The position numbers and the translations under genes were made by a program. This document shows positions 55,394-64,000 of a DNA stretch of 64,000 nucleotides, piece by piece (positions within the stretch are counted from its first letter, which is position 1; every line of letters starts with the position of its first letter). The stretch is from an uncultured Solirubrobacterales bacterium (lineage in GTDB: Bacteria > Actinomycetota > Thermoleophilia > Solirubrobacterales > Solirubrobacteraceae), in assembly GCA_963834885.1 (NCBI GenBank), contig CAWIDF010000008.1, positions 217,371 through 281,370 of the forward strand, in the 5' to 3' direction. The notes below the pieces were generated by a model. The model was not told where the DNA came from. It saw only the letters and a list, made by a program, of their open reading frames with translations, and searched no databases.

Positions 55394-56698
55394 ATGGATC
55401 GCTTGTTCGGCGAGGATGAGGCGCCGGCCGCCAGCCGGTCGGCGACCCTGCCCGGCGCGCCGCTCGCGACGCGGCTGCGCCCGCGCGCGCTCGAGGAGTT
55501 CGTCGGCCAGGATCGGTTGCTGGCGCCCGGGTCGGCTCTGAGACGCACGATCGAGGAGGGGCATCCCCACTCGATGATCCTCCACGGCCCGCCGGGGAGC
55601 GGCAAGACCACGCTGGCGCGCCTGATCGCCGAGGCCTCGGGCGCCGCGTTCGAGGAGGAGAGCGCGGTGCAGGCCGGCCGGGCCGAGGTCCGCGGGGTGA
55701 TCGAGCGAGCCCGCCAGCGGCTGTCGACCGGGGGCCGGCGCACGATCTTCTTTCTGGACGAGATCCACCGCTTCAACAAGGCGCAGCAGGACGCGCTGCT
55801 GCCGGCCGTGGAGGAGGGGCTCCTGACCCTGATCGGCGCGACGACCGAGAACCCGTACTTCGAGGTCAACTCGGCGCTGCTCTCGCGGGCTCGGGTGTAC
55901 GAGCTCGAGCCGCTGACCGCACCGCAGATCCGGGTGCTGCTCGATCGAGCGCTCGAGCGGGGGGAGTGCGGCCCCGCGGCGCCGGTCGACTCGGCTGCGC
56001 TCGATTTCCTTGCCGCGCGGTCCGGCGGCGACGCCCGCACGGCCCTGAACGCGTTGGAGCTGGCGTGCTCCAACGCCGGTCCGGACGGCGCCGTGGGGCT
56101 GGAACAGGCCGAGGACGCGCTGCAGCGACGCGCGCTGCTCTACGACCGGCAGGCCGACCGCCACTACGACACGATCTCGGCCTGGATCAAGGCGACGCGC
56201 GGCTCCGACCCCGACGCGTCGCTGTACTACCTCGCGGTCATGCTCGAGGGCGGCGAGGACCCGCGGTTCATCGTGCGCCGGATGGTCGTGCTCGCCTCGG
56301 AGGACATCGGCAACGCCGATCCGCAGGCGCTCGTGGTGGCGACCGCGGCGGCCCAGGCGGTCGAGCACGTCGGCATGCCCGAGTGCCAGTTCGCGCTTGC
56401 CCAGGCCGCGATCTATCTGTCGCTGGCGCCCAAGTCGGACGCGGCCAAGCGGGCGCTCGGCGCCTCGCGGGGGTTCATCCGCGAGCACGGCGCGCAGCCG
56501 CCGCCGCCCTACCTGCGCTCCTCGACGCGGAGCGGCGGCGATTACGACTACCCCCACGCGCGTCCGGGGCACGTCTCGCCGCAGGAGCTGATGCCGGACA
56601 TCGTGATCGGAGAGCGCTTCTACGAGCCCGACGACGCCGAGGCCGCGCTGCGTGAGCGTCTGGAGGAGATCCGGCGGGCGCGTGGCCGGTCCGGATAA
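55394..56698 (+). CDS. rarA: Replication-associated recombination protein A (MgsA)
   Basis: PLATRLRP, GPPGSGKTT, DEIHRFNKAQQD, ATTENP, SEDIGNADP. Confidence 0.95.
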   Translation: MDRLFGEDEAPAASRSATLPGAPLATRLRPRALEEFVGQDRLLAPGSALRRTIEEGHPHSMILHGPPGSGKTTLARLIAEASGAAFEEESAVQAGRAEVRGVIERARQRLSTGGRRTIFFLDEIHRFNKAQQDALLPAVEEGLLTLIGATTENPYFEVNSALLSRARVYELEPLTAPQIRVLLDRALERGECGPAAPVDSAALDFLAARSGGDARTALNALELACSNAGPDGAVGLEQAEDALQRRALLYDRQADRHYDTISAWIKATRGSDPDASLYYLAVMLEGGEDPRFIVRRMVVLASEDIGNADPQALVVATAAAQAVEHVGMPECQFALAQAAIYLSLAPKSDAAKRALGASRGFIREHGAQPPPPYLRSSTRSGGDYDYPHARPGHVSPQELMPDIVIGERFYEPDDAEAALRERLEEIRRARGRSG

Positions 56699-56708
56699 CC
56701 TGCCTCGG

Positions 56709-58301
56709 ATGCAAGCCACCATCGCCACCGCCCAGCTCGAATCCTTCAATCCCGCCACCGGAGAGTCGATCGGCTCTGTCCCGGTGACCGCGCCCGAAGA
56801 CGTACAGGGGGTCGTCGACGCCGTCGCGGCGGTCCAGCCGTCATGGGCGGCGCTGTCTCTGCGGCAGCGCGGCGAGTACCTGCAGCGCGCCGCCCAGGTG
56901 ATCCTCGACGAATGCGACGAGATTCGCGATCTGATCGTGCGCGAGCAGGGCAAGCCGCGCAACGAGGCGTTCTCGATGGAGCTCCTGCCCACGATCGACG
57001 CGCTGCGGTGGATCGCGCGCGCCGGGGCCGAGATCCTCGCGGAGGAGAAGGTCCCGATGCCCCAGGTGTTCCTGAAGACCAAGCGCTCGGCGTTCGTGTA
57101 CGAGCCACTTGGCGTGATCGGGGTCATCTCGCCGTGGAACTACCCCTGGAGCATTCCGCTCGGGGAGGTCGCGCTCGCGCTGATGGCCGGCAACGGCGTG
57201 GTGTTGAAGCCCGCGTCGCTGACCCCGCTGATCGGCGAGCGGATCGCTGACGTGTTCTCGCGCGCCGGCGTCCCGGAGGGGCTCATCCGGGTGCTGCACG
57301 GCCCGGGCACCGGCGCGGCGCTCGCCGAGTCGAGCGTGGCCAAGGTGTTCTTCACCGGCTCGGTCGAGACCGGGCGTTCGGTCGCCGAGGCGTGCGCGCG
57401 GCGCCTGAAGGGCTCGGTGCTCGAGCTCGGCGGCAAGGACCCGATGATCGTGCTCGCCGACGCCCACCTGGAGCACGCCATCGCCGGCGCCGTGTGGGGC
57501 AGCTTCGCCAACGCGGGGCAGACGTGCTCGGGGATCGAGCGGATCTACGTCGAGCGGGGTGTCTCGGAGCGGTTCATCGCCGGCGTGGTGGCGGGCGCCC
57601 AACGGTTGCGCGTGGGCGACCCGACGAGCTGGGACACGGAGATCGGGCCGATGGTCTCGGGCGAGCAGATGGAGATCGTGCGCGGGTTGGTCGACGACGC
57701 GGTGGCGGCCGGGGCCGTCCTGCACTGCGGCGGCCCGGTCGACGCGCCCGCGGGTCTCGACGGCGCGTTCTACGCCCCGGCGGTGCTGACCGGCGTCACG
57801 CGCGAGATGCGGATCATGCGCGAGGAGATCTTCGGTCCCGCGGTCCCGATCGTCGTCGTCGACTCCGCGGAGGAGGCGGTGGCGCTGGCCAACGACTCGG
57901 ACTTCGGCCTGGGCGCCTCGGTGTGGACCTCGGACCGCGCGCGTGGCGAGCGGATCGCCGGCGAGTTGCAGTCGGGCATGGTGTGGATCAACGACCACAT
58001 GTTCAGCCACGGGGCCTGCCAGTGCGCCTGGGGCGGGGTCAAGGACTCCGGCCTGGGTCGCACCCACTCGAAGTTCGGGCTGTACGAGTGCGTGAACGTG
58101 AAGCTGCGCACGTGGGAGGGCTCGGCCGTGCGCGACCCGTGGTGGCACCCGTACGACGAGACGCTGGGCGAGGCGTTCCGCGCCACCGCGAAGCTGCTGT
58201 ACGGGCGCGCGTCCGACCGGGCCGCCGCGCTGCGTGACGGCGCGGTACCGCTGACGCGGCTGGGGTCGCGGCTGGCGCGTGACGCGGTCAAGCGTGGATG
58301 A
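56709..58301 (+). CDS. Aldehyde dehydrogenase with C-terminal extension
   Basis: ISPWNYP, FTGS, ELGGKDP, GQTC, EEIFGP; TAACCT 7 nt before ATG. Confidence 0.93.
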   Translation: MQATIATAQLESFNPATGESIGSVPVTAPEDVQGVVDAVAAVQPSWAALSLRQRGEYLQRAAQVILDECDEIRDLIVREQGKPRNEAFSMELLPTIDALRWIARAGAEILAEEKVPMPQVFLKTKRSAFVYEPLGVIGVISPWNYPWSIPLGEVALALMAGNGVVLKPASLTPLIGERIADVFSRAGVPEGLIRVLHGPGTGAALAESSVAKVFFTGSVETGRSVAEACARRLKGSVLELGGKDPMIVLADAHLEHAIAGAVWGSFANAGQTCSGIERIYVERGVSERFIAGVVAGAQRLRVGDPTSWDTEIGPMVSGEQMEIVRGLVDDAVAAGAVLHCGGPVDAPAGLDGAFYAPAVLTGVTREMRIMREEIFGPAVPIVVVDSAEEAVALANDSDFGLGASVWTSDRARGERIAGELQSGMVWINDHMFSHGACQCAWGGVKDSGLGRTHSKFGLYECVNVKLRTWEGSAVRDPWWHPYDETLGEAFRATAKLLYGRASDRAAALRDGAVPLTRLGSRLARDAVKRG

Positions 58302-58374: not shown

Positions 58375-59112
58375 ATGCCCGCCCAGGCTTACGCCGGCAA
58401 GGAATGCGTCTGCCAGCTCCGCAGGGGGATCTGCGATCAGTCCTGCGTGCAGGGGATGCTCGAGACGCCGTTCTACATCGCGTGCCTGCGCCTGACCGGC
58501 CGGCGGTGCGTGGTCGTGGGCGGCGGCGAGGTCGGGCTGGAGAAGGTCGAGGGGCTGCTGGCGTGCGACGCCGACGTGATGCTGGTGTCGCCCGAGGCTC
58601 ATCCGGAGCTGGTCCAGCTCGCGCTCGAGGGTTCGATCCGGTGGGAGCGCCGCGAGTACGCCGGCGCCGCGGACCTCGACGGGGCGTTGATCGCGATCGC
58701 CGCCACCGACGACACCGATCTGAACATCCGCGTGTTCGAGGACGCCGAGGCGCGGGCGATGCTGGTCAACGTGGTCGACGTGCCGCCGCTGTGCAACTTC
58801 ATCCTGCCGGCGATCGTGCGGACCGGACCGCTCGCGGTGGCGATCTCGACCGCCGGCGCCTCGCCGGCGCTGGCCAAGCGGATGAAGCGCGAGATCGCCG
58901 AGCTGTTCGGCGAGCCGTACGCTGTGCTCGCGGTGCTACTGAACGAGGCCCGGGGGTGGGCGAAGGCCACGCTCCCGACCTACCAGGACCGCAAGGAGTT
59001 CTTCGAGGGGATCGTCAACGGCGAGCCCGATCCGGTCGAGCTGCTGCGCGCGGGCGACATCGACGCGGTCCGCGACCTGATCGCGGACGCGCAGCGCGCC
59101 GTCGCGGTGTGA
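58375..59112 (+). CDS. Precorrin-2 dehydrogenase / sirohydrochlorin ferrochelatase (SirC/Met8/CysG-N-like) with Cys-rich N-terminal extension
   Basis: [44 protein letters not shown]; core begins at ATG 58456. Confidence 0.9.
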
Positions 59113-59606: not shown

Positions 59607-59613
59607 GAGCGGG

Positions 59614-59658
59614 GCCTGGTCGAGAAACGCAAGCCCACGTTGCGTTTCTCGACCAGGC
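59614..59658. terminator. Perfect 19-bp inverted repeat between convergent genes (bidirectional terminator or REP-like)
   Basis: GCCTGGTCGAGAAACGCAA-gcccacg-TTGCGTTTCTCGACCAGGC. Confidence 0.7.
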
Positions 59659-59668
59659 TGCCGTGGGT

Positions 59669-60526
59669 CTAGTAACGAAGCGCTTCGGACAGCGCGTCGA
59701 GGGCGCCGCCCTCCGCGGCCATGTCCGCGTGAAAGGGCGGGGAGATCGAGGTCAGGCCGCCGTCGACGACGAGCGTCGTGCCGGTCACGTACTCCGCGCC
59801 CGGTGAGAGCAGGAACAGCACGCACTCGGCGACCTCGGCCGCCGTGCCCATCCGCTTCTTGGGGATCTTCGGCAGCACAGTGTCGAGCGAGGGGACGCGC
59901 CCGGTGGCGTAGAAGTAGCTCGAGGAGTCGGTCTCGATGATGCCGCCGTTGACCGCGTTGACGTTGACGCCGCGCGGCGCCAGCTCGACCGCCATGTAGC
60001 GCGCCCACGTCTCGATCGCCGCCTTGGCCGAGCCGAGGTTGGCGTAGGTGGGGAACGAGCGGATGCTGCCGTAGCTCGACAACACGACGACCCGGCCGCC
60101 CTCGCGAGGCATCAACCGGACCGCGCGCTGCGTCCCGACCACGAACGCGCGCACGTTCAGGTTGAAGGTGCGCTCGAGGTGGTGGGGCTTCAGGTCCATA
60201 AAGTGGTGGAAGTTGCTCGCGGAGGCGTTGGAGACGAAGAAGTCGAGGCGGCCGAAGTGCTCCTGCACCTGGTCGAACATCGCCTCGATGTCGTCGAGGT
60301 TCTCGAGGTCGGCTCGAATCGCCAACCCGGAGCTGCCCAGGCGCTCGGCCTCGGTCACGACCTCGCGTGCCAGTTCCTCGTTCTGCTTGTAGTTGACGAC
60401 CGGGATCGCGCCGCGCGCGGCCAGCCGCAGCGCCAGCTCCTTCCCGATCCCGCGGGAGGCGCCGGTGATCAGCGCGACCTTGCCTTCGAATCCGCGGCGG
60501 GGGTCAGGTAGGAGGGGGTCGCTCAT
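59669..60526 (-). CDS. chcA: 1-cyclohexenylcarbonyl-CoA reductase (ChcA)-like SDR enoyl reductase
   Basis: TGASRGIG, VVNYK.N, FVSNA, LSSYGSIRSFPTYANLGSAK (Y-x6-K), RYMAVELAP, NAVNGG, ISPPF: closely colinear with S. collinus ChcA as remembered. Confidence 0.8.
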   Translation of the reverse strand: MSDPLLPDPRRGFEGKVALITGASRGIGKELALRLAARGAIPVVNYKQNEELAREVVTEAERLGSSGLAIRADLENLDDIEAMFDQVQEHFGRLDFFVSNASASNFHHFMDLKPHHLERTFNLNVRAFVVGTQRAVRLMPREGGRVVVLSSYGSIRSFPTYANLGSAKAAIETWARYMAVELAPRGVNVNAVNGGIIETDSSSYFYATGRVPSLDTVLPKIPKKRMGTAAEVAECVLFLLSPGAEYVTGTTLVVDGGLTSISPPFHADMAAEGGALDALSEALRY

Positions 60527-61647
60527 CGCTTCAACAAATCCCGGGCGATCGTGGTCTTCTGGATCTCGGCGGTGCCTTCCTCGAACCGCTGGGCGCGCGC
60601 ATCACGGTACACGCGCTCGATCGGGCTCGTCGACCAGTACCCGAGTCCGCCGTGGACCTGCAGGGCGCCGTCGGTCACCCGCTGGAGCATTTCGCTCGCG
60701 AACAGCTTCGCCATGGCGGCCTCCATCGGGGCGCGCCCCGTCTCCTCCCACGTCGACGCGGCGTGCCTGACCAGGCGCCGGGCGGCCTCCAAATCCGTAG
60801 CCATCTCGGCCAGCTTGAACGCGATCGCCTGGCGCTCGGCGATCTTCTTGCCAAACGTCTCACGCTCCTGGGCGTAGACGAGGGCCAGGTCGAGCGCGCG
60901 CTGCGCGAGGCCGACGCACGTCGTGGCCAGCGAGATCCGGCTCGGACCCAGGAACCCGCTGAGGGCGATGTCCACGCCTTGGCCCTCCTCGCCGAACCGG
61001 TCGGCGACCGGCACCGGCGCGCGGTCGAACACGATGTGGCCGTGGTCGGTGCCGCGCACGCCCATCGTCTCGGCCATCTCTCGGTTGTCGATGCCCTCGC
61101 CGTGGGACGGGACCATCAGCGCCACCGTCCCGTCCGTGCCGCGGGTGCCCTCGACCCGAGCGAAGGTCATCAGGTAGTCGGCGATCGTGCCGAACGTGAT
61201 CAGGTGCTTCTCGCCGCTCAGGTAGTACGTGTCTCCCTCCCGGACGACGCTGCAGCGGATGTCCGCGCCGCTGCCGGCCCCAGGTTCGGTCAGCGTGAAC
61301 GCGACCTTGATCTCGCCGGCCACCGCGGGCTTGATGAACCGCTCGCGCTGGTCGTCGTTGGCGTGCGAGTCCATCGGGCGCCAGATGCCGTTGGCGACGT
61401 GGACGATCATCCGCAGCGACGCGTGCGACATCGAGAACAGCTCGAGCAGCTCGAGGTAGCTCGTGAACGGGATGCCGGCGCCGCCGTACTCCACGGGCGC
61501 CGCCAGCCGCAGGTATCCGCGGTCGCGCAGCTCATCCCACAGCGACAGCGGGACCTTGTGCTCGCGCTCGATCAGCTCGGCCCATCGCTCGCCCTCGTTC
61601 TCGACGTAGGTGCGGACCTCGCCGTGCAAGGTGGTGGTGGCGGTCAT
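60523..61647 (-). CDS. Acyl-CoA dehydrogenase (AnsL/PlmL-like position)
   Basis: FTLTEPGAGS, GEKHLIT, RETFGKKI, QVHGGLGY, YRDARAQRFEEGTAEIQ. Confidence 0.93.
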   Translation of the reverse strand: MTATTTLHGEVRTYVENEGERWAELIEREHKVPLSLWDELRDRGYLRLAAPVEYGGAGIPFTSYLELLELFSMSHASLRMIVHVANGIWRPMDSHANDDQRERFIKPAVAGEIKVAFTLTEPGAGSGADIRCSVVREGDTYYLSGEKHLITFGTIADYLMTFARVEGTRGTDGTVALMVPSHGEGIDNREMAETMGVRGTDHGHIVFDRAPVPVADRFGEEGQGVDIALSGFLGPSRISLATTCVGLAQRALDLALVYAQERETFGKKIAERQAIAFKLAEMATDLEAARRLVRHAASTWEETGRAPMEAAMAKLFASEMLQRVTDGALQVHGGLGYWSTSPIERVYRDARAQRFEEGTAEIQKTTIARDLLKR

Positions 61648-63158
61648 GCGGTCACGAAATCGCGGGCTTGCTCGCGCAGGACGAACTTCTGGATCTTGCC
61701 CGACGGCGTCCGGGGGAGCGTGTCGACCAGCTCCAGACGCTCGGGCCAGTACGTCTTGGCGACGCGGTGTGAGTCTAGGTACTCGAGCATCGTGTCGAAC
61801 TCCAGGTCCCCGACCACGAACGCGCAGGCCCGCTCGCCCAGCCGGTCGTCTGGCATGGCCACGATCGCCACATCACGCACGGCCGGGTGGGCGTGCAGCA
61901 GCTGCTCGATCTCGGCCACCGGCACCTTCTCGCCGCCGCGGTTGATCACGTCCTTGACGCGACCCGTGATCCGGACGTAGCCGCGAGCGTCGATCCGAGC
62001 CAGGTCGCCGGTCCGGTACCAGCCGTCGTCGGTGACGGCCTCGGCGGTCAGATCGGGGCGATTCAGATAGCCCTCGAACAGACAGTCGGTGTGGACCTCG
62101 AAGTTGCCCTCCTCGCCGGTGGCGAGCGCGACACCGGAATCGTCGACGACGCGCAATTGCACCCCGGCGAGAGCCCGGCCGTCGCTTCCCCAGGCGAGCT
62201 CGGGCGGGTCGCCGGGCGCGAACGCGCAGCCCAGGCAGCTCTCGGTCGTGCCCCACGCGCCGCCGACCTCGGCGTCGAGGACCTCGCGCGAGTGGCGGGC
62301 CAGTTCGCGCGGGATGGCGGCGCCGGTAGCGACGAACGTTCGCAAACGCGACGGCTGCTCGCCCGTCTCGGAGGCCACCCGGGTGAGGTCGGCCAGGAAC
62401 GGCGTGGCCGCCTGGACGAACGTGACGCCGAAGCGCTGCATGGCCTGCAACCCGGTCGAGGCGTCCCAGACCTCCTGGAGAACCAGCGTCACGCCCAGCC
62501 GGATCGCCACCCACATTCCGTACAGGAAGCCGGTCTGGTGGGCGAGCGGCGAGGGCACGTAGACCACGTCGCCGGCGCCCAGTCCGAAGTGCTCGATGTG
62601 GTGATCGGCGGCGCGGGTGAGCACGTCGTAGCGGTGGAGCGCTCCCTTGGGCTCACCGGAAGTCCCTGACGTGAACAGCAGCTGGGCAAGCCGATGCGGA
62701 TCACCCGCCGACGAGGGCCTCGGCGAGCCGGCGGAAACCAGGCACTCGTACTCGTCGGGCAACACGACGAGGTGCTCGACGGACGGAAGGCCGGCCGCCA
62801 TCTGCGCGTAGTCGCGGCCGCGGAAAGTGTCCGGGACGAACAGGACGCGGGCGCGGCTCGAGCCGAGCATGAACGACAGCTCGCGCTCGCGGAAGATCGG
62901 CATCAATGGCTCGCACACCGCGCCGGCGCGCAGCACGCCAAGTGCGATCGTCACGAACTCCAGGCGATTGGGGAGCTGGAACGCCACGGGCTCACCCGGG
63001 AGCACGCCGAGCCGCCCCAACGCTGCCGCGACCCCGTCGGCGTCGTTCTTCAAAGCAGCCCAGGTCAGCTCGCGCACCGATCCGTCGGCGCTGATCTCGA
63101 CGACGGCTCGCTCGCCCGGCCGCTCGCGGGCGTGTCGGTCCAGATCGCCGAGGATCAT
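61644..63158 (-). CDS. AMP-dependent CoA ligase, cyclohexanecarboxylate-CoA ligase (AliA/AnsK)-like
   Basis: PLMPIFRERELSFML, FTSGTSGEPKG, WGTTE, YRTGD, GRVKDVINRGGEK, PSGKIQK; ATG overlaps upstream TGA. Confidence 0.9.
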   Translation of the reverse strand: MILGDLDRHARERPGERAVVEISADGSVRELTWAALKNDADGVAAALGRLGVLPGEPVAFQLPNRLEFVTIALGVLRAGAVCEPLMPIFRERELSFMLGSSRARVLFVPDTFRGRDYAQMAAGLPSVEHLVVLPDEYECLVSAGSPRPSSAGDPHRLAQLLFTSGTSGEPKGALHRYDVLTRAADHHIEHFGLGAGDVVYVPSPLAHQTGFLYGMWVAIRLGVTLVLQEVWDASTGLQAMQRFGVTFVQAATPFLADLTRVASETGEQPSRLRTFVATGAAIPRELARHSREVLDAEVGGAWGTTESCLGCAFAPGDPPELAWGSDGRALAGVQLRVVDDSGVALATGEEGNFEVHTDCLFEGYLNRPDLTAEAVTDDGWYRTGDLARIDARGYVRITGRVKDVINRGGEKVPVAEIEQLLHAHPAVRDVAIVAMPDDRLGERACAFVVGDLEFDTMLEYLDSHRVAKTYWPERLELVDTLPRTPSGKIQKFVLREQARDFVTA

Positions 63159-64000
63159 ATGGCCGGCACCGTGCCGGACACCGCCGCCGGCACGCCGAGG
63201 GCGTTCATGTGGTCGAGGAACTCGGGATAGGAGATCCGGTACGCGTGCGGGTAGGACAGCTCGGTCACGCCGGACGCGATCGACCCCGCCACGGTCAGCG
63301 CCATCAGCACCCGGTGGTCGTTGAACGAGGACAGGTTGGCCCCGCGCAGCCGCGGCACGCCCTCGAAGGTCATGTCGTTGCCGTCGAACTCGATCCTCGC
63401 GCCCATCTTGCGCAGCTGGAGCATCGACGCTACTCGGTCGGACTCCTTGAGCCGGACGTGGGCGACGTGGCCGAGCGCGCTGCGCCCGCGGGCGCGGGCG
63501 GCCAGCACGGACAGGATCGGGACCATGTCGGGGATGTCGCGGCAATCGAGCGGGCCGCCCTCCGGCGGGGTGCCGTCGTGGTCCATCGAGATCGAGTGCT
63601 CGTCCTCGGCGATCCGGAACGGGACGCCCGCGGCCATCAGGTTCTCGAGCACGGCCGCCTCGGGGTGCCCGGCGATCGTGGTCGGGCTGCGGAAGGTGAC
63701 CTTGGACGGGTGCAGCGTGCACGCGGCCAGCCCGAACATGGCCGAGCCCAGGTCGGCCGGAAGCGTGACGTTGCCGGCGTGGGGTCGCTGGTCCGGCTCG
63801 ATGTAGAACTCGCGCCAGTCCTCGCGCGCTGAGACCTCGAGGCCGAACTGACGCATCATGTCGATCGTGAGCTCGAGGTAGGGGCGCTCGTTGAGCTCGC
63901 CGCGCACCTCGACCACGGTCGGCTCGCTCGCGTACGGCGCCAGCATGAGCAGGCCGGAGATCCACTGGGAGAGCGTGCCGTCGATCCGGATCCGCCCGCC
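63155..64000 (-). CDS. EPSP-synthase (AroA)-fold protein, AnsJ-like; 5' truncated by window edge
   Basis: IPDMVP, RLKESDR, NDHR, SYPEF; open frame to 64000 reading IDGTLSQWISGLLM...GELNERPY. Confidence 0.85.
   Translation of the reverse strand, partial: GGRIRIDGTLSQWISGLLMLAPYASEPTVVEVRGELNERPYLELTIDMMRQFGLEVSAREDWREFYIEPDQRPHAGNVTLPADLGSAMFGLAACTLHPSKVTFRSPTTIAGHPEAAVLENLMAAGVPFRIAEDEHSISMDHDGTPPEGGPLDCRDIPDMVPILSVLAARARGRSALGHVAHVRLKESDRVASMLQLRKMGARIEFDGNDMTFEGVPRLRGANLSSFNDHRVLMALTVAGSIASGVTELSYPHAYRISYPEFLDHMNALGVPAAVSGTVPAI

What the first reader, a model, noticed from the sequence alone, without database searches (positions are those of the whole stretch)
63155..64000. EPSPS-fold protein has lost shikimate-3-phosphate phosphate-binding residues
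Seen (by-eye alignment to E. coli AroA): GSVSSQF becomes GTLSQW (one Ser lost); LVSKPY becomes LNERPY (Ser197 to Glu); AKTFP becomes RISYP (Lys411 to Ile); Asp313, KE..R and DHR are retained. Inference: not a housekeeping AroA; likely binds unphosphorylated shikimate or a CoA/adenylate derivative and performs an elimination step. To my knowledge AnsJ-type chemistry is poorly characterised, so this free-standing copy is a tractable target.
Basis: partly seen in the sequence, partly recalled or inferred. Interest (0 to 1): 0.65.

Follow-up and report, generated by a model that had tools for sequence, protein, structure and literature searches.

The report
EPSPS-like first gene of cyclohexanecarboxyl-CoA operon

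Summary
The ORF is the C-terminal 281 codons of a 435-446 aa gene that runs off the window (C8:280525-281865, minus strand). It is not the housekeeping aroA. The genome has a canonical aroA in an aminotransferase, DAHP synthase, prephenate dehydrogenase, aroA operon, and also a murA. The gene heads a translationally coupled operon: EPSPS-like, CoA ligase, acyl-CoA dehydrogenase-like, SDR. This is the ansJ-K-L-chcA / plmJK pattern. The cassette is inserted between moaC and moaB and occurs in only 3 of 121 genomes of the order.

The functional inference is not supported. Glu197 is in 29/125 and a non-Lys411 in 50/125 of the nearest AroA-type proteins; His336 is the commonest residue (64/125). 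Two complete genomes have a Glu197 enzyme as their only AroA-type gene, next to a chorismate-synthase-family gene. The sister Anaerolineaceae AroA, flanked by aroE, aroC and aroD, already has Tyr23, Ile169, Trp172 and Glu197. Truly clade-specific changes are Asp49His, Asn94Ser, QGD to HPE and Glu351Gln. All universally conserved catalytic and PEP-site residues are kept.

Verdict: new member of the known AnsJ/PlmJ family, biochemistry unresolved, moderate-low interest.

The parts
63155..64000 (-). C-terminal 281 codons of the EPSPS-like (AnsJ/PlmJ-type) gene. The gene continues beyond the window to genome C8:281832 (conserved GTG start, MRLLV...) or C8:281865 (TTG).
   Evidence: (TIGR01356 306 bits against a cut-off of 287). 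AF2 model pLDDT 94.4 and TM 0.90-0.92 to closed E. coli EPSPS.
61644..63158 (-). Acyl-CoA ligase (AnsK-like). Its ATG overlaps the TGA of the EPSPS-like gene (ATGA at 63155-63158).
   Evidence: AMP-binding plus AMP-binding_C; best NCBIfam match is cyclohexanecarboxylate-CoA ligase, 476 bits, below the cut-off of 792. The same gene order is seen in 72 of 82 related loci, and the two genes are fused in many lineages.
60523..61647 (-). Acyl-CoA dehydrogenase-fold flavoprotein (AnsL-like), with a 4-nt overlap to the ligase gene.
   Evidence: It has the same phyletic pattern as the EPSPS-like gene, 3 of 121 genomes of the order.
59669..60526 (-). Short-chain dehydrogenase/reductase of the FabL / enoyl reductase type (ChcA-like), with a 4-nt overlap. 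It is the last gene of the operon.
   Evidence: best match FabL, 254 bits, below cut-off. It is present after the ACAD gene in the relatives of at least 82% identity.

Best explanation
The ORF is the larger part of a free-standing AnsJ/PlmJ-type paralogue of EPSP synthase. It is the first gene of a translationally coupled four-gene operon: EPSPS-like, acyl-CoA ligase, ACAD-fold flavoprotein, ChcA-like SDR. From memory, this is the cassette type known from Streptomyces for converting shikimate into cyclohexanecarboxyl-CoA (CHC-CoA). Shown here: it is an accessory gene, inserted between moaC and moaB and patchy within one genus. It coexists with a canonical aroA. It belongs to a monophyletic clade that branched from within Glu197-type housekeeping AroAs. 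It is under purifying selection and folds as a closed EPSPS. It keeps every universally invariant catalytic or PEP-site residue: Lys22, Arg27, Arg124, Ser170, Gln171, Tyr200, Asp242, Asp313, Lys340, Glu341, Arg344, Asp384, His385 and Arg386. Inferred: it is a catalytically active enzyme that binds a shikimate-type free acid, because the carboxylate ligand Arg27 is kept. It also binds PEP or another phospho/carboxylate anion, and it acts immediately before (or channels into) the CoA ligase, to which it is fused in many lineages. My best mechanistic guess (about 40%) is carboxyvinyl-transfer-type chemistry retuned by Asp49His and Asn94Ser near the Lys22/PEP-phosphate subsite. A lyase step is the next guess (about 25%). 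The exact reaction is not established.
For: Fold and family: PF00275 at 268 bits, TIGR01356 at 306 bits, 1G6S E = 1.7e-47, AF2 pLDDT 94.4, TM 0.90-0.92. Not housekeeping: a canonical aroA sits in an aromatic operon and murA is also present. Five of 5 other carrier genomes have at least 3 PF00275 genes. Operon: ATGA-type 4-nt overlaps. The J-K-L order is conserved in about 70 of 82 loci, with ChcA-like and/or FadH-like (AnsM-like) genes after it. J-K fusions occur in Streptomyces, Lentzea, Microbacterium, Sinomonas, Bacillota and Chitinophagales. Homologues occur in many Streptomyces, including S. rishiriensis, and in Herbiconiux; that genus may contain cyclohexyl-C17:0 (PMC10011130). Clade monophyly has support 0.997. 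Invariant residues are kept and clade-specific changes were mapped. dN/dS is 0.14-0.34. Accessory nature: 3 of 121 genomes and an empty moaC|moaB site in a congener.
Against: No biochemical datum is available here. The key papers could not be read (Cropp 2000; Skyrud 2020, whose title credits a shikimoyl-CoA synthetase and an FAD-dependent dehydratase and does not name an EPSPS-like step). The EPSPS-like protein may therefore be dispensable in vitro. This genome lacks the AnsM/FadH-like reductase that many relatives have, so the pathway may be incomplete or altered. Cultured Conexibacter and Solirubrobacter are not reported to contain cyclohexyl fatty acids, so the end product here is unknown. 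Orthology to S. collinus AnsJ itself was not tested because that sequence was not on hand.
Confidence: 0.7

Rival explanations
1. The enzyme has lost the 3-phosphate pocket and so binds unphosphorylated shikimate (or a CoA or adenylate derivative). It catalyses an elimination, the 1,4-conjugate dehydration that opens the CHC pathway, without PEP.
For: Ser169 to Leu is nearly clade-specific; canonical enzymes have Ser or Thr in 114 of 125. Glu197 could pair with Lys340 and fill the phosphate site. The pathway needs three deoxygenations (established labelling work, from memory).
Against: Glu197, non-Lys411 and His336 are common in housekeeping AroAs. The sister housekeeping AroA already has Tyr23, Ile169, Trp172 and Glu197. 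Lys340 and Ser170 are kept. All PEP-site arginines are invariant, which is unexpected if PEP or another anion is not bound. Arg27 (carboxylate ligand) is kept, which argues against a thioester substrate. The title of Skyrud 2020 assigns dehydration to an FAD-dependent enzyme.
Confidence: 0.2
2. It is a second bona fide EPSP synthase (isozyme) that happens to be linked to the cassette.
For: It passes the TIGR01356 equivalog cut-off. All invariant catalytic residues are present. Its nearest outgroups are working AroAs with almost the same pocket.
Against: Asp49 is Asp in 123 of 125 canonical enzymes but His or Gln in 12 of 12 clade members. Asn94Ser, QGD to HPE and Glu351Gln are clade-specific. 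The gene is strictly linked or fused to a CoA ligase and has the same phyletic pattern as the ACAD gene. An extra AroA would drain shikimate away from a shikimate-derived product.
Confidence: 0.1
3. It is a non-catalytic shikimate-binding or specificity module that hands substrate to a promiscuous CoA ligase.
For: N-terminal fusions to the ligase are frequent. The ligase is called 'promiscuous' in the title of Skyrud 2020 (seen in reference lists).
Against: Complete conservation of the catalytic pair Asp313/Glu341 and of the PEP-site residues Arg124, Arg344 and Arg386 across 43-100% identity is hard to explain without catalysis.
Confidence: 0.1
4. The operon is catabolic, for reductive degradation of shikimate/quinate or activation of cyclohexanecarboxylate, rather than biosynthetic.
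For: The best NCBIfam matches of the ligase and the ACAD include cyclohexanecarboxylate-CoA ligase and cyclohexanecarbonyl-CoA dehydrogenase. No PKS or dedicated condensing enzyme is adjacent. It is accessory and patchy in soil bacteria.
Against: All those matches are far below the curated cut-offs (476 against 792, 189 against 650). The same gene set is fused or linked in Streptomyces, where (from memory) it is biosynthetic. No hydratase, thiolase or ring-cleavage genes are present.
Confidence: 0.07

Closest known systems
AnsJ (Streptomyces collinus ansatrienin cluster), the PlmJ part of PlmJK (phoslactomycin), and the corresponding AsuB / MycA proteins: the EPSPS-like component of the CHC-CoA cassette (from memory; Cropp et al. 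2000 Nat Biotechnol 18:980, cited)
   Same: An EPSPS-fold protein directly upstream of, or fused to, an acyl-CoA ligase, followed by an ACAD-fold protein and ChcA-type and/or dienoyl-CoA-reductase-type reductases. It falls in the same monophyletic clade as Streptomyces J-K fusion proteins, at about 50-55% identity.
   Different: It is free-standing rather than fused. It sits in a Solirubrobacterales chromosome between moaC and moaB with no PKS nearby. This copy of the cassette lacks the AnsM-like reductase. Direct comparison with the published AnsJ sequence was not possible.
Housekeeping EPSP synthase AroA (EC 2.5.1.19), in particular the Glu197-type subfamily (Planctomycetota, Spirochaetota, Clostridia, Anaerolineae)
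   Same: The fold, the length, all invariant catalytic and PEP-site residues, the Glu197 / non-Lys411 / His336 pattern and (with Anaerolineaceae) Tyr23-His24, a hydrophobic residue at 169 and Trp172.
   Different: Asp49His, Asn94Ser, Arg100Tyr/Gln, QGD(271-273) to HPE and Glu351Gln. The genomic context is a CoA-thioester operon instead of aro genes. It always coexists with another AroA.
MurA (UDP-GlcNAc enolpyruvyl transferase)
   Same: The same PF00275 superfamily fold and PEP chemistry.
   Different: It is only a distant relative (TIGR01072 71 bits against a cut-off of 393). The genome has its own murA on contig C4.

Membership tests
EPSP synthase superfamily (PF00275 fold) | Two-domain inside-out alpha/beta barrel fold with a full-length profile match | tested here: met
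   PF00275 at 267.7 bits over positions 3-417. AF2 pLDDT 94.4. Foldseek TM 0.90-0.92 and rmsd 2.1-2.2 A to 1G6S, 3FK0 and 7TM5.
AroA, 3-phosphoshikimate 1-carboxyvinyltransferase (TIGR01356 equivalog) | Score above the curated equivalog cut-off | tested here: met
   306.1 bits against a cut-off of 287.25. Pipelines will therefore name it AroA, as the NCBI and JGI names of homologues show.
AroA, 3-phosphoshikimate 1-carboxyvinyltransferase | Catalytic and PEP-site residues Lys22, Arg124, Asp313, Glu341, Arg344, His385 and Arg386 | tested here: met
   All are conserved in 12 of 12 clade members and 125 of 125 canonical sequences.
AroA, 3-phosphoshikimate 1-carboxyvinyltransferase | S3P-site residues (E. 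coli Ser23, Arg27, Ser169, Ser170, Ser197, Tyr200, Asn336, Lys340; assignment from memory of 1G6S) | tested here: inconclusive
   Arg27, Ser170, Tyr200 and Lys340 are kept. Ser23Tyr, Ser169Leu, Ser197Glu and Asn336His are changed. The same changes occur in context-verified housekeeping AroAs.
AroA, 3-phosphoshikimate 1-carboxyvinyltransferase | The near-invariant Asp49 and the QGD(271-273) motif | tested here: not met
   Asp49 is Asp in 123 of 125 canonical sequences, but His in 11 and Gln in 1 of 12 clade members. Gln271 becomes His and Asp273 becomes Glu in 12 of 12.
AroA, 3-phosphoshikimate 1-carboxyvinyltransferase | Being the organism's shikimate-pathway step-6 enzyme (sole aroA, aro-gene context) | tested here: not met
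   A separate aroA at C1:195.4-196.7 kb lies in an aminotransferase, DAHP synthase, prephenate dehydrogenase, aroA operon. This gene lies in a CoA-ligase / ACAD / SDR operon.
AnsJ/PlmJ-type component of the CHC-CoA cassette | EPSPS-like gene adjacent or fused to an acyl-CoA ligase, followed by an ACAD-fold gene | tested here: met
   4-nt overlaps in the window. The order is conserved in about 70 of 82 loci. Fusions of about 980-1030 aa exist.
AnsJ/PlmJ-type component of the CHC-CoA cassette | Complete reductase set (ChcA-type SDR plus AnsM-type FMN/FAD dienoyl-CoA-reductase-like protein) | tested here: not met
   The SDR is present. No AnsM-like gene is in the operon and there is no close homologue in the genome (best 26-31% identity). 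Close relatives do carry it.
AnsJ/PlmJ-type component of the CHC-CoA cassette | Same clade as the Streptomyces proteins | tested here: met
   The clade is monophyletic with support 0.997. Streptomyces, Lentzea and Microbacterium loci share the SKYHAHR, GSSGTT, LSQW, NERPY, HPE and AYRISYP signatures. Identity to the published AnsJ or PlmJK sequences themselves was not tested.
AnsJ/PlmJ-type component of the CHC-CoA cassette | The operon yields cyclohexanecarboxyl-CoA from shikimate | not testable with these tools
   This needs heterologous expression and LC-MS.

The most novel reading that the evidence does not exclude
AnsJ-type proteins are still active PEP-dependent carboxyvinyl transferases, but work on a non-phosphorylated shikimate-derived acid (shikimate itself, or a later 3- or 5-hydroxy-cyclohexene/cyclohexane carboxylate). 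They would install an enolpyruvyl ether on the hydroxyl equivalent to shikimate O5 so that this otherwise unactivated hydroxyl can leave. That would give EPSPS chemistry a new role as leaving-group activation in a deoxygenation pathway. It would also explain why the PEP site is fully conserved while the Lys22/Asp49/Asn94 surroundings are remodelled.
Probability: 0.15. Interest if true: 0.65.

Novelty: new member of a known kind. Interest (0 to 1): 0.3.

Why it matters
The EPSPS-like component of the CHC-CoA pathway has been known as a gene since 2000, but as far as I could establish it has no assigned reaction. This work gives three practical points. First, automatic annotation will call this protein AroA (it passes TIGR01356), and JGI often mislabels stand-alone copies as 'cyclohexanecarboxylate-CoA ligase'. 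Both labels mislead pathway reconstruction and surveys of glyphosate targets. Second, residue-by-residue comparison with E. coli AroA alone is unsafe. Glu197, the absence of Lys411 and hydrophobic 169 / Trp172 are lineage traits of working AroAs. The real discriminators of the AnsJ clade are Asp49His, Asn94Ser, HPE for QGD and Glu351Gln. Third, a free-standing, well-folding (pLDDT 94) copy is a convenient construct for finally assaying the family. Cultured sources exist as well (Conexibacter sp. S30A1, Streptomyces, Herbiconiux), so this particular copy is not unique.

Tried and rejected
1. I tried to read the primary literature on the pathway. Skyrud et al. 2020 (doi 10.1021/acscatal.0c00406), Rui et al. 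2010 (PMC2915727) and Cropp et al. 2000 are not held.

2. I looked for an open paper listing the E. coli S3P and PEP ligand residues. Only a docking paper naming pocket residues turned up. The ligand assignments therefore rest on my memory of 1G6S.

3. The context of the Glu197-type protein P0226 was uninformative: a short contig with no DNA. I replaced it with two complete genomes.

4. A paralogue count in the Anaerolineaceae genome holding P0292 was not possible because the genome is not held. Only the gene neighbourhood could be used.

5. I searched the chemotaxonomy of Conexibacter and Solirubrobacter for omega-cyclohexyl fatty acids. None is reported, so I do not claim a lipid product here.

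6. I considered that the ORF might be a decaying duplicate. I rejected this on dN/dS of 0.14-0.34 and the invariant catalytic residues.

7. I considered Lys411 to Ile a real loss of a PEP ligand. I rejected it as diagnostic, because 50 of 125 nearest AroA-type proteins lack Lys411.
Full report
**What is there.** Window 63155-64000 on the minus strand is an open frame that runs off the window end. The complete gene is C8:280525-281865, 446 codons from a TTG. Orthologues begin at the conserved MRLLV..., so the real start is probably the GTG 11 codons further in, giving 435 aa. The part inside the window matches Pfam EPSP_synthase positions 155-417. The full protein scores 267.7 bits with PF00275 and 306.1 bits with the AroA equivalog TIGR01356, whose cut-off is 287.25. 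An AlphaFold2 model built on a 33-sequence family alignment has mean pLDDT 94.4 and pTM 0.92. Its best structural matches are ligand-bound, closed E. coli, Klebsiella and Vibrio EPSP synthases (TM 0.90-0.92, rmsd 2.1-2.2 A). Open forms score 0.57-0.64.

**Check of the observation.** The HMMER alignment to E. coli AroA (1G6S, E = 1.7e-47) and a 150-sequence MAFFT alignment indexed on the E. coli sequence fetched from MG1655 confirm each substitution.
- DGSVSSQF becomes DGTL-SQW. The loop is one residue shorter, Ser169 becomes Leu, and Ser170 and Gln171 are kept.
- LVSKPY becomes LNERPY (Ser197 to Glu).
- AKTFP becomes RISYP (Lys411 to Ile, with Arg at 410).
- Asp313, Lys340, Glu341, Arg344, Asp384, His385 and Arg386 are kept.

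It carries Ser23Tyr, Val24His, Asp49His, Asn94Ser, Arg100Tyr and Pro101Phe. The pattern is fixed across clade members of 43-100% identity. Pairwise dN/dS against eight orthologues is 0.14-0.34. It is therefore a maintained, functional gene.

**It is not the housekeeping AroA.** The genome has three PF00275 genes.
- The gene on contig C1 is a canonical AroA (TIGR01356 362 bits). It is the last gene of a run made of an aminotransferase, a DAHP synthase, prephenate dehydrogenase and aroA.
- The gene on contig C4 is MurA (TIGR01072 482 bits).
- A chorismate synthase is also present.

Five other genomes carrying a homologue of this gene, three of them complete chromosomes, each have at least three PF00275 genes.

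**Context.** The gene heads four minus-strand genes joined by 4-nt start/stop overlaps, the first being ATGA at 63155-63158.
- The EPSPS-like gene.
- An AMP-forming acyl-CoA ligase. Its best NCBIfam match is cyclohexanecarboxylate-CoA ligase, below the cut-off.
- An ACAD-fold flavoprotein.
- A FabL / enoyl-reductase-type SDR.

From memory, this is the order of the S. collinus ansJ-ansK-ansL-chcA(-ansM) and phoslactomycin plmJK-plmL-chcA-plmM genes, which make cyclohexanecarboxyl-CoA from shikimate. Cropp et al. 2000 is cited for such a cassette. PMC13304725 states that MycA1-A4 make the CHC moiety from shikimate.

Among 82 related loci, EPSPS-like, ligase, ACAD is the conserved core. The reductase complement varies.
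- SDR plus a 678-aa Oxidored_FMN/Pyr_redox_2 protein (AnsM-like), for example L009, L022 and L083.
- The AnsM-like protein alone, for example Conexibacter sp. S30A1, L068.
- The SDR alone, as here.

This genome has no close AnsM-like gene anywhere; the best tblastn identity is 26-31%.

In many lineages the EPSPS-like and ligase parts are one polypeptide of about 980-1030 aa. These include Streptomyces, Lentzea, Microbacterium, Sinomonas, Homoserinimonas, Rugosimonospora, a Bacillota MAG and a Chitinophagales MAG. Homologues occur in dozens of Streptomyces, including S. rishiriensis. They also occur in Herbiconiux (WP_218003789.1), a genus whose description allows cyclohexyl-C17:0 (PMC10011130).

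**Accessory nature.** Only 3 of 121 sampled genomes of the order have the gene, all in the same genus. They are exactly the genomes that have the ACAD orthologue. In a congener without the cassette, moaC and moaB are adjacent. Here the four genes plus a DUF6036 / AbiEii-like nucleotidyltransferase ORF lie between them.

**Why the functional inference fails.** I compared 12 divergent clade members with 125 of the most similar AroA-type proteins, taken from a search of 1.84 billion representatives.
- Glu at 197 is found in 29 of 125.
- A residue other than Lys at 411 is found in 50 of 125.
- His at 336 is the commonest state, in 64 of 125.

To test whether Glu197 proteins are real AroAs, I located them in GTDB genomes. 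In two complete chromosomes (CP070782.1 and OZ244653.1) the Glu197 protein is the only PF00275 gene besides MurA. In each it lies next to a chorismate-synthase-family gene.

In a maximum-likelihood tree the AnsJ-like clade is monophyletic (support 0.997). Its sister is a small group (P0138, P0139, P0153; support 1.0), and the Glu197 clade comes next (support 0.91). A member of the P0138 cluster, Anaerolineaceae MBG0785142.1, has shikimate dehydrogenase directly upstream, with chorismate synthase and dehydroquinase within about 6 kb. So it is a housekeeping AroA by context. It already reads SKYHTHR (Tyr23, His24), L-I-S-P-W (Ile169, Trp172) and LNEASY (Glu197).

Most of the 'lost phosphate ligands' are therefore inherited lineage traits of working EPSP synthases. 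In addition, Lys340 and Ser170 (phosphate site) and Arg27 (carboxylate site) are invariant in the clade. A conserved carboxylate ligand argues against a CoA-thioester substrate.

**What is really specific.** These columns are conserved in the clade and rare or absent in the 125 canonical proteins.
- Asp49 to His. Canonical enzymes have Asp in 123 of 125.
- Asn94 to Ser.
- Ser169 to Leu, shared only with the sister group as Ile.
- Phe172 to Trp.
- Gln271 and Asp273 (QGD) to HPE.
- Glu351 to Gln.

Arg100 is replaced by Tyr or Gln; canonical enzymes have Arg in 105 of 125. Every position that is invariant or nearly so in the canonical set is kept in 12 of 12 clade members: Lys22, Arg27, Arg124, Ser170, Tyr200, Asp242, Asp313, Lys340, Glu341, Arg344, Asp384, His385 and Arg386.

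From established knowledge of the EPSPS-S3P-glyphosate complex (1G6S, from memory), Lys22, Arg124, Arg344, Arg386 and Gln171 bind PEP, and Asp313 and Glu341 are the catalytic acid and base. Asn94 lies at the PEP-phosphate subsite. I believe Asp49 is near Lys22, but I could not verify this.

I therefore infer an active enzyme with an intact anion/PEP site and a retuned Lys22 environment. It would act on a shikimate-type free acid next to the ligase step. Whether it transfers a carboxyvinyl group, eliminates phosphate or water, or merely presents substrate cannot be decided in silico.

[quoted passage not shown] The EPSPS-like protein may therefore be unnecessary in vitro. I could not read the paper. 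No cyclohexyl fatty acids are reported for cultured Conexibacter or Solirubrobacter, and no consumer of CHC-CoA is encoded nearby. The end product in this organism is therefore unknown.

**Earlier AI notes.** Notes from this scan on the same cassette in this and three other genomes agree on the cassette's identity. I treated them as leads only.

**Verdict.** The gene is a new member of the known AnsJ/PlmJ family. Interest is moderate-low, mainly as a convenient free-standing construct for an enzyme family whose reaction is still unassigned.

Noticed in passing
window 59607-64000 and beyond (genome C8:276976-282849); locus L247: The four-gene cassette plus a 165-aa DUF6036 / AbiEii-like nucleotidyltransferase ORF (C8:282327-282824, plus strand) lies between moaC and moaB. 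In a same-genus genome without the cassette (G002) moaC and moaB are directly adjacent. Two other congeners have 2.5 kb and 8.4 kb of other DNA at this spot, so it looks like an insertion hot spot.
   Followed up: partly
loci L009, L013, L016, L020, L022, L024, L026, L081, L083 against the window; L068: The cassette exists in three versions among close relatives: with SDR plus AnsM-like FMN/FAD reductase, with the AnsM-like protein only, or with the SDR only (this genome). The window's genome has no close AnsM-like gene at all. Either ChcA-type and AnsM-type reductases are interchangeable or the pathway here is truncated.
   Followed up: partly
homologues P0002, P0006, P0007, P0017 and others: JGI/IMG names many stand-alone 430-450 aa PF00275-only homologues 'cyclohexanecarboxylate-CoA ligase'. 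This label was probably propagated from J-K fusion proteins. NCBI names them 3-phosphoshikimate 1-carboxyvinyltransferase. Both labels are misleading.
   Followed up: no
loci L122, L124, L134, L167: A large, phylogenetically broad subfamily of housekeeping AroA has Glu at E. coli position 197, Thr169 and no Lys411 (motifs SKSHTIR ... TSQY ... LNEKPY ... VTFP). It spans Planctomycetota, Spirochaetota, Clostridia, Bacteroidales, Nitrospinota and some archaea. How these enzymes bind the S3P phosphate is not covered by any solved structure I could find.
   Followed up: partly
L068:14793-16283 (Conexibacter sp. S30A1): A phage-integrase-family gene lies within about 700 bp downstream of the cassette in this cultured strain, which hints at mobility of the cassette.
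   Followed up: no
window 58375-59112 (+) and 56652-58301 (+): A siroheme-synthase N-terminal-type (precorrin-2 dehydrogenase-like) gene and an aldehyde dehydrogenase ORF flank the moaC side. Upstream of moaB lie ccmA-like, hemA-like and probably further ccm/hem genes (named from ORF translations and tblastn synteny only, not profile-checked). This is an ordinary cofactor neighbourhood unrelated to the cassette.
   Followed up: no
PMC10722151 Table 2: Two Solirubrobacter strains are reported by MIDI to contain C18:3 w6c (6,9,12), an unusual fatty acid for bacteria. I wondered whether an alicyclic acid could be misnamed by the MIDI library. This is pure speculation and was not tested.
   Followed up: no
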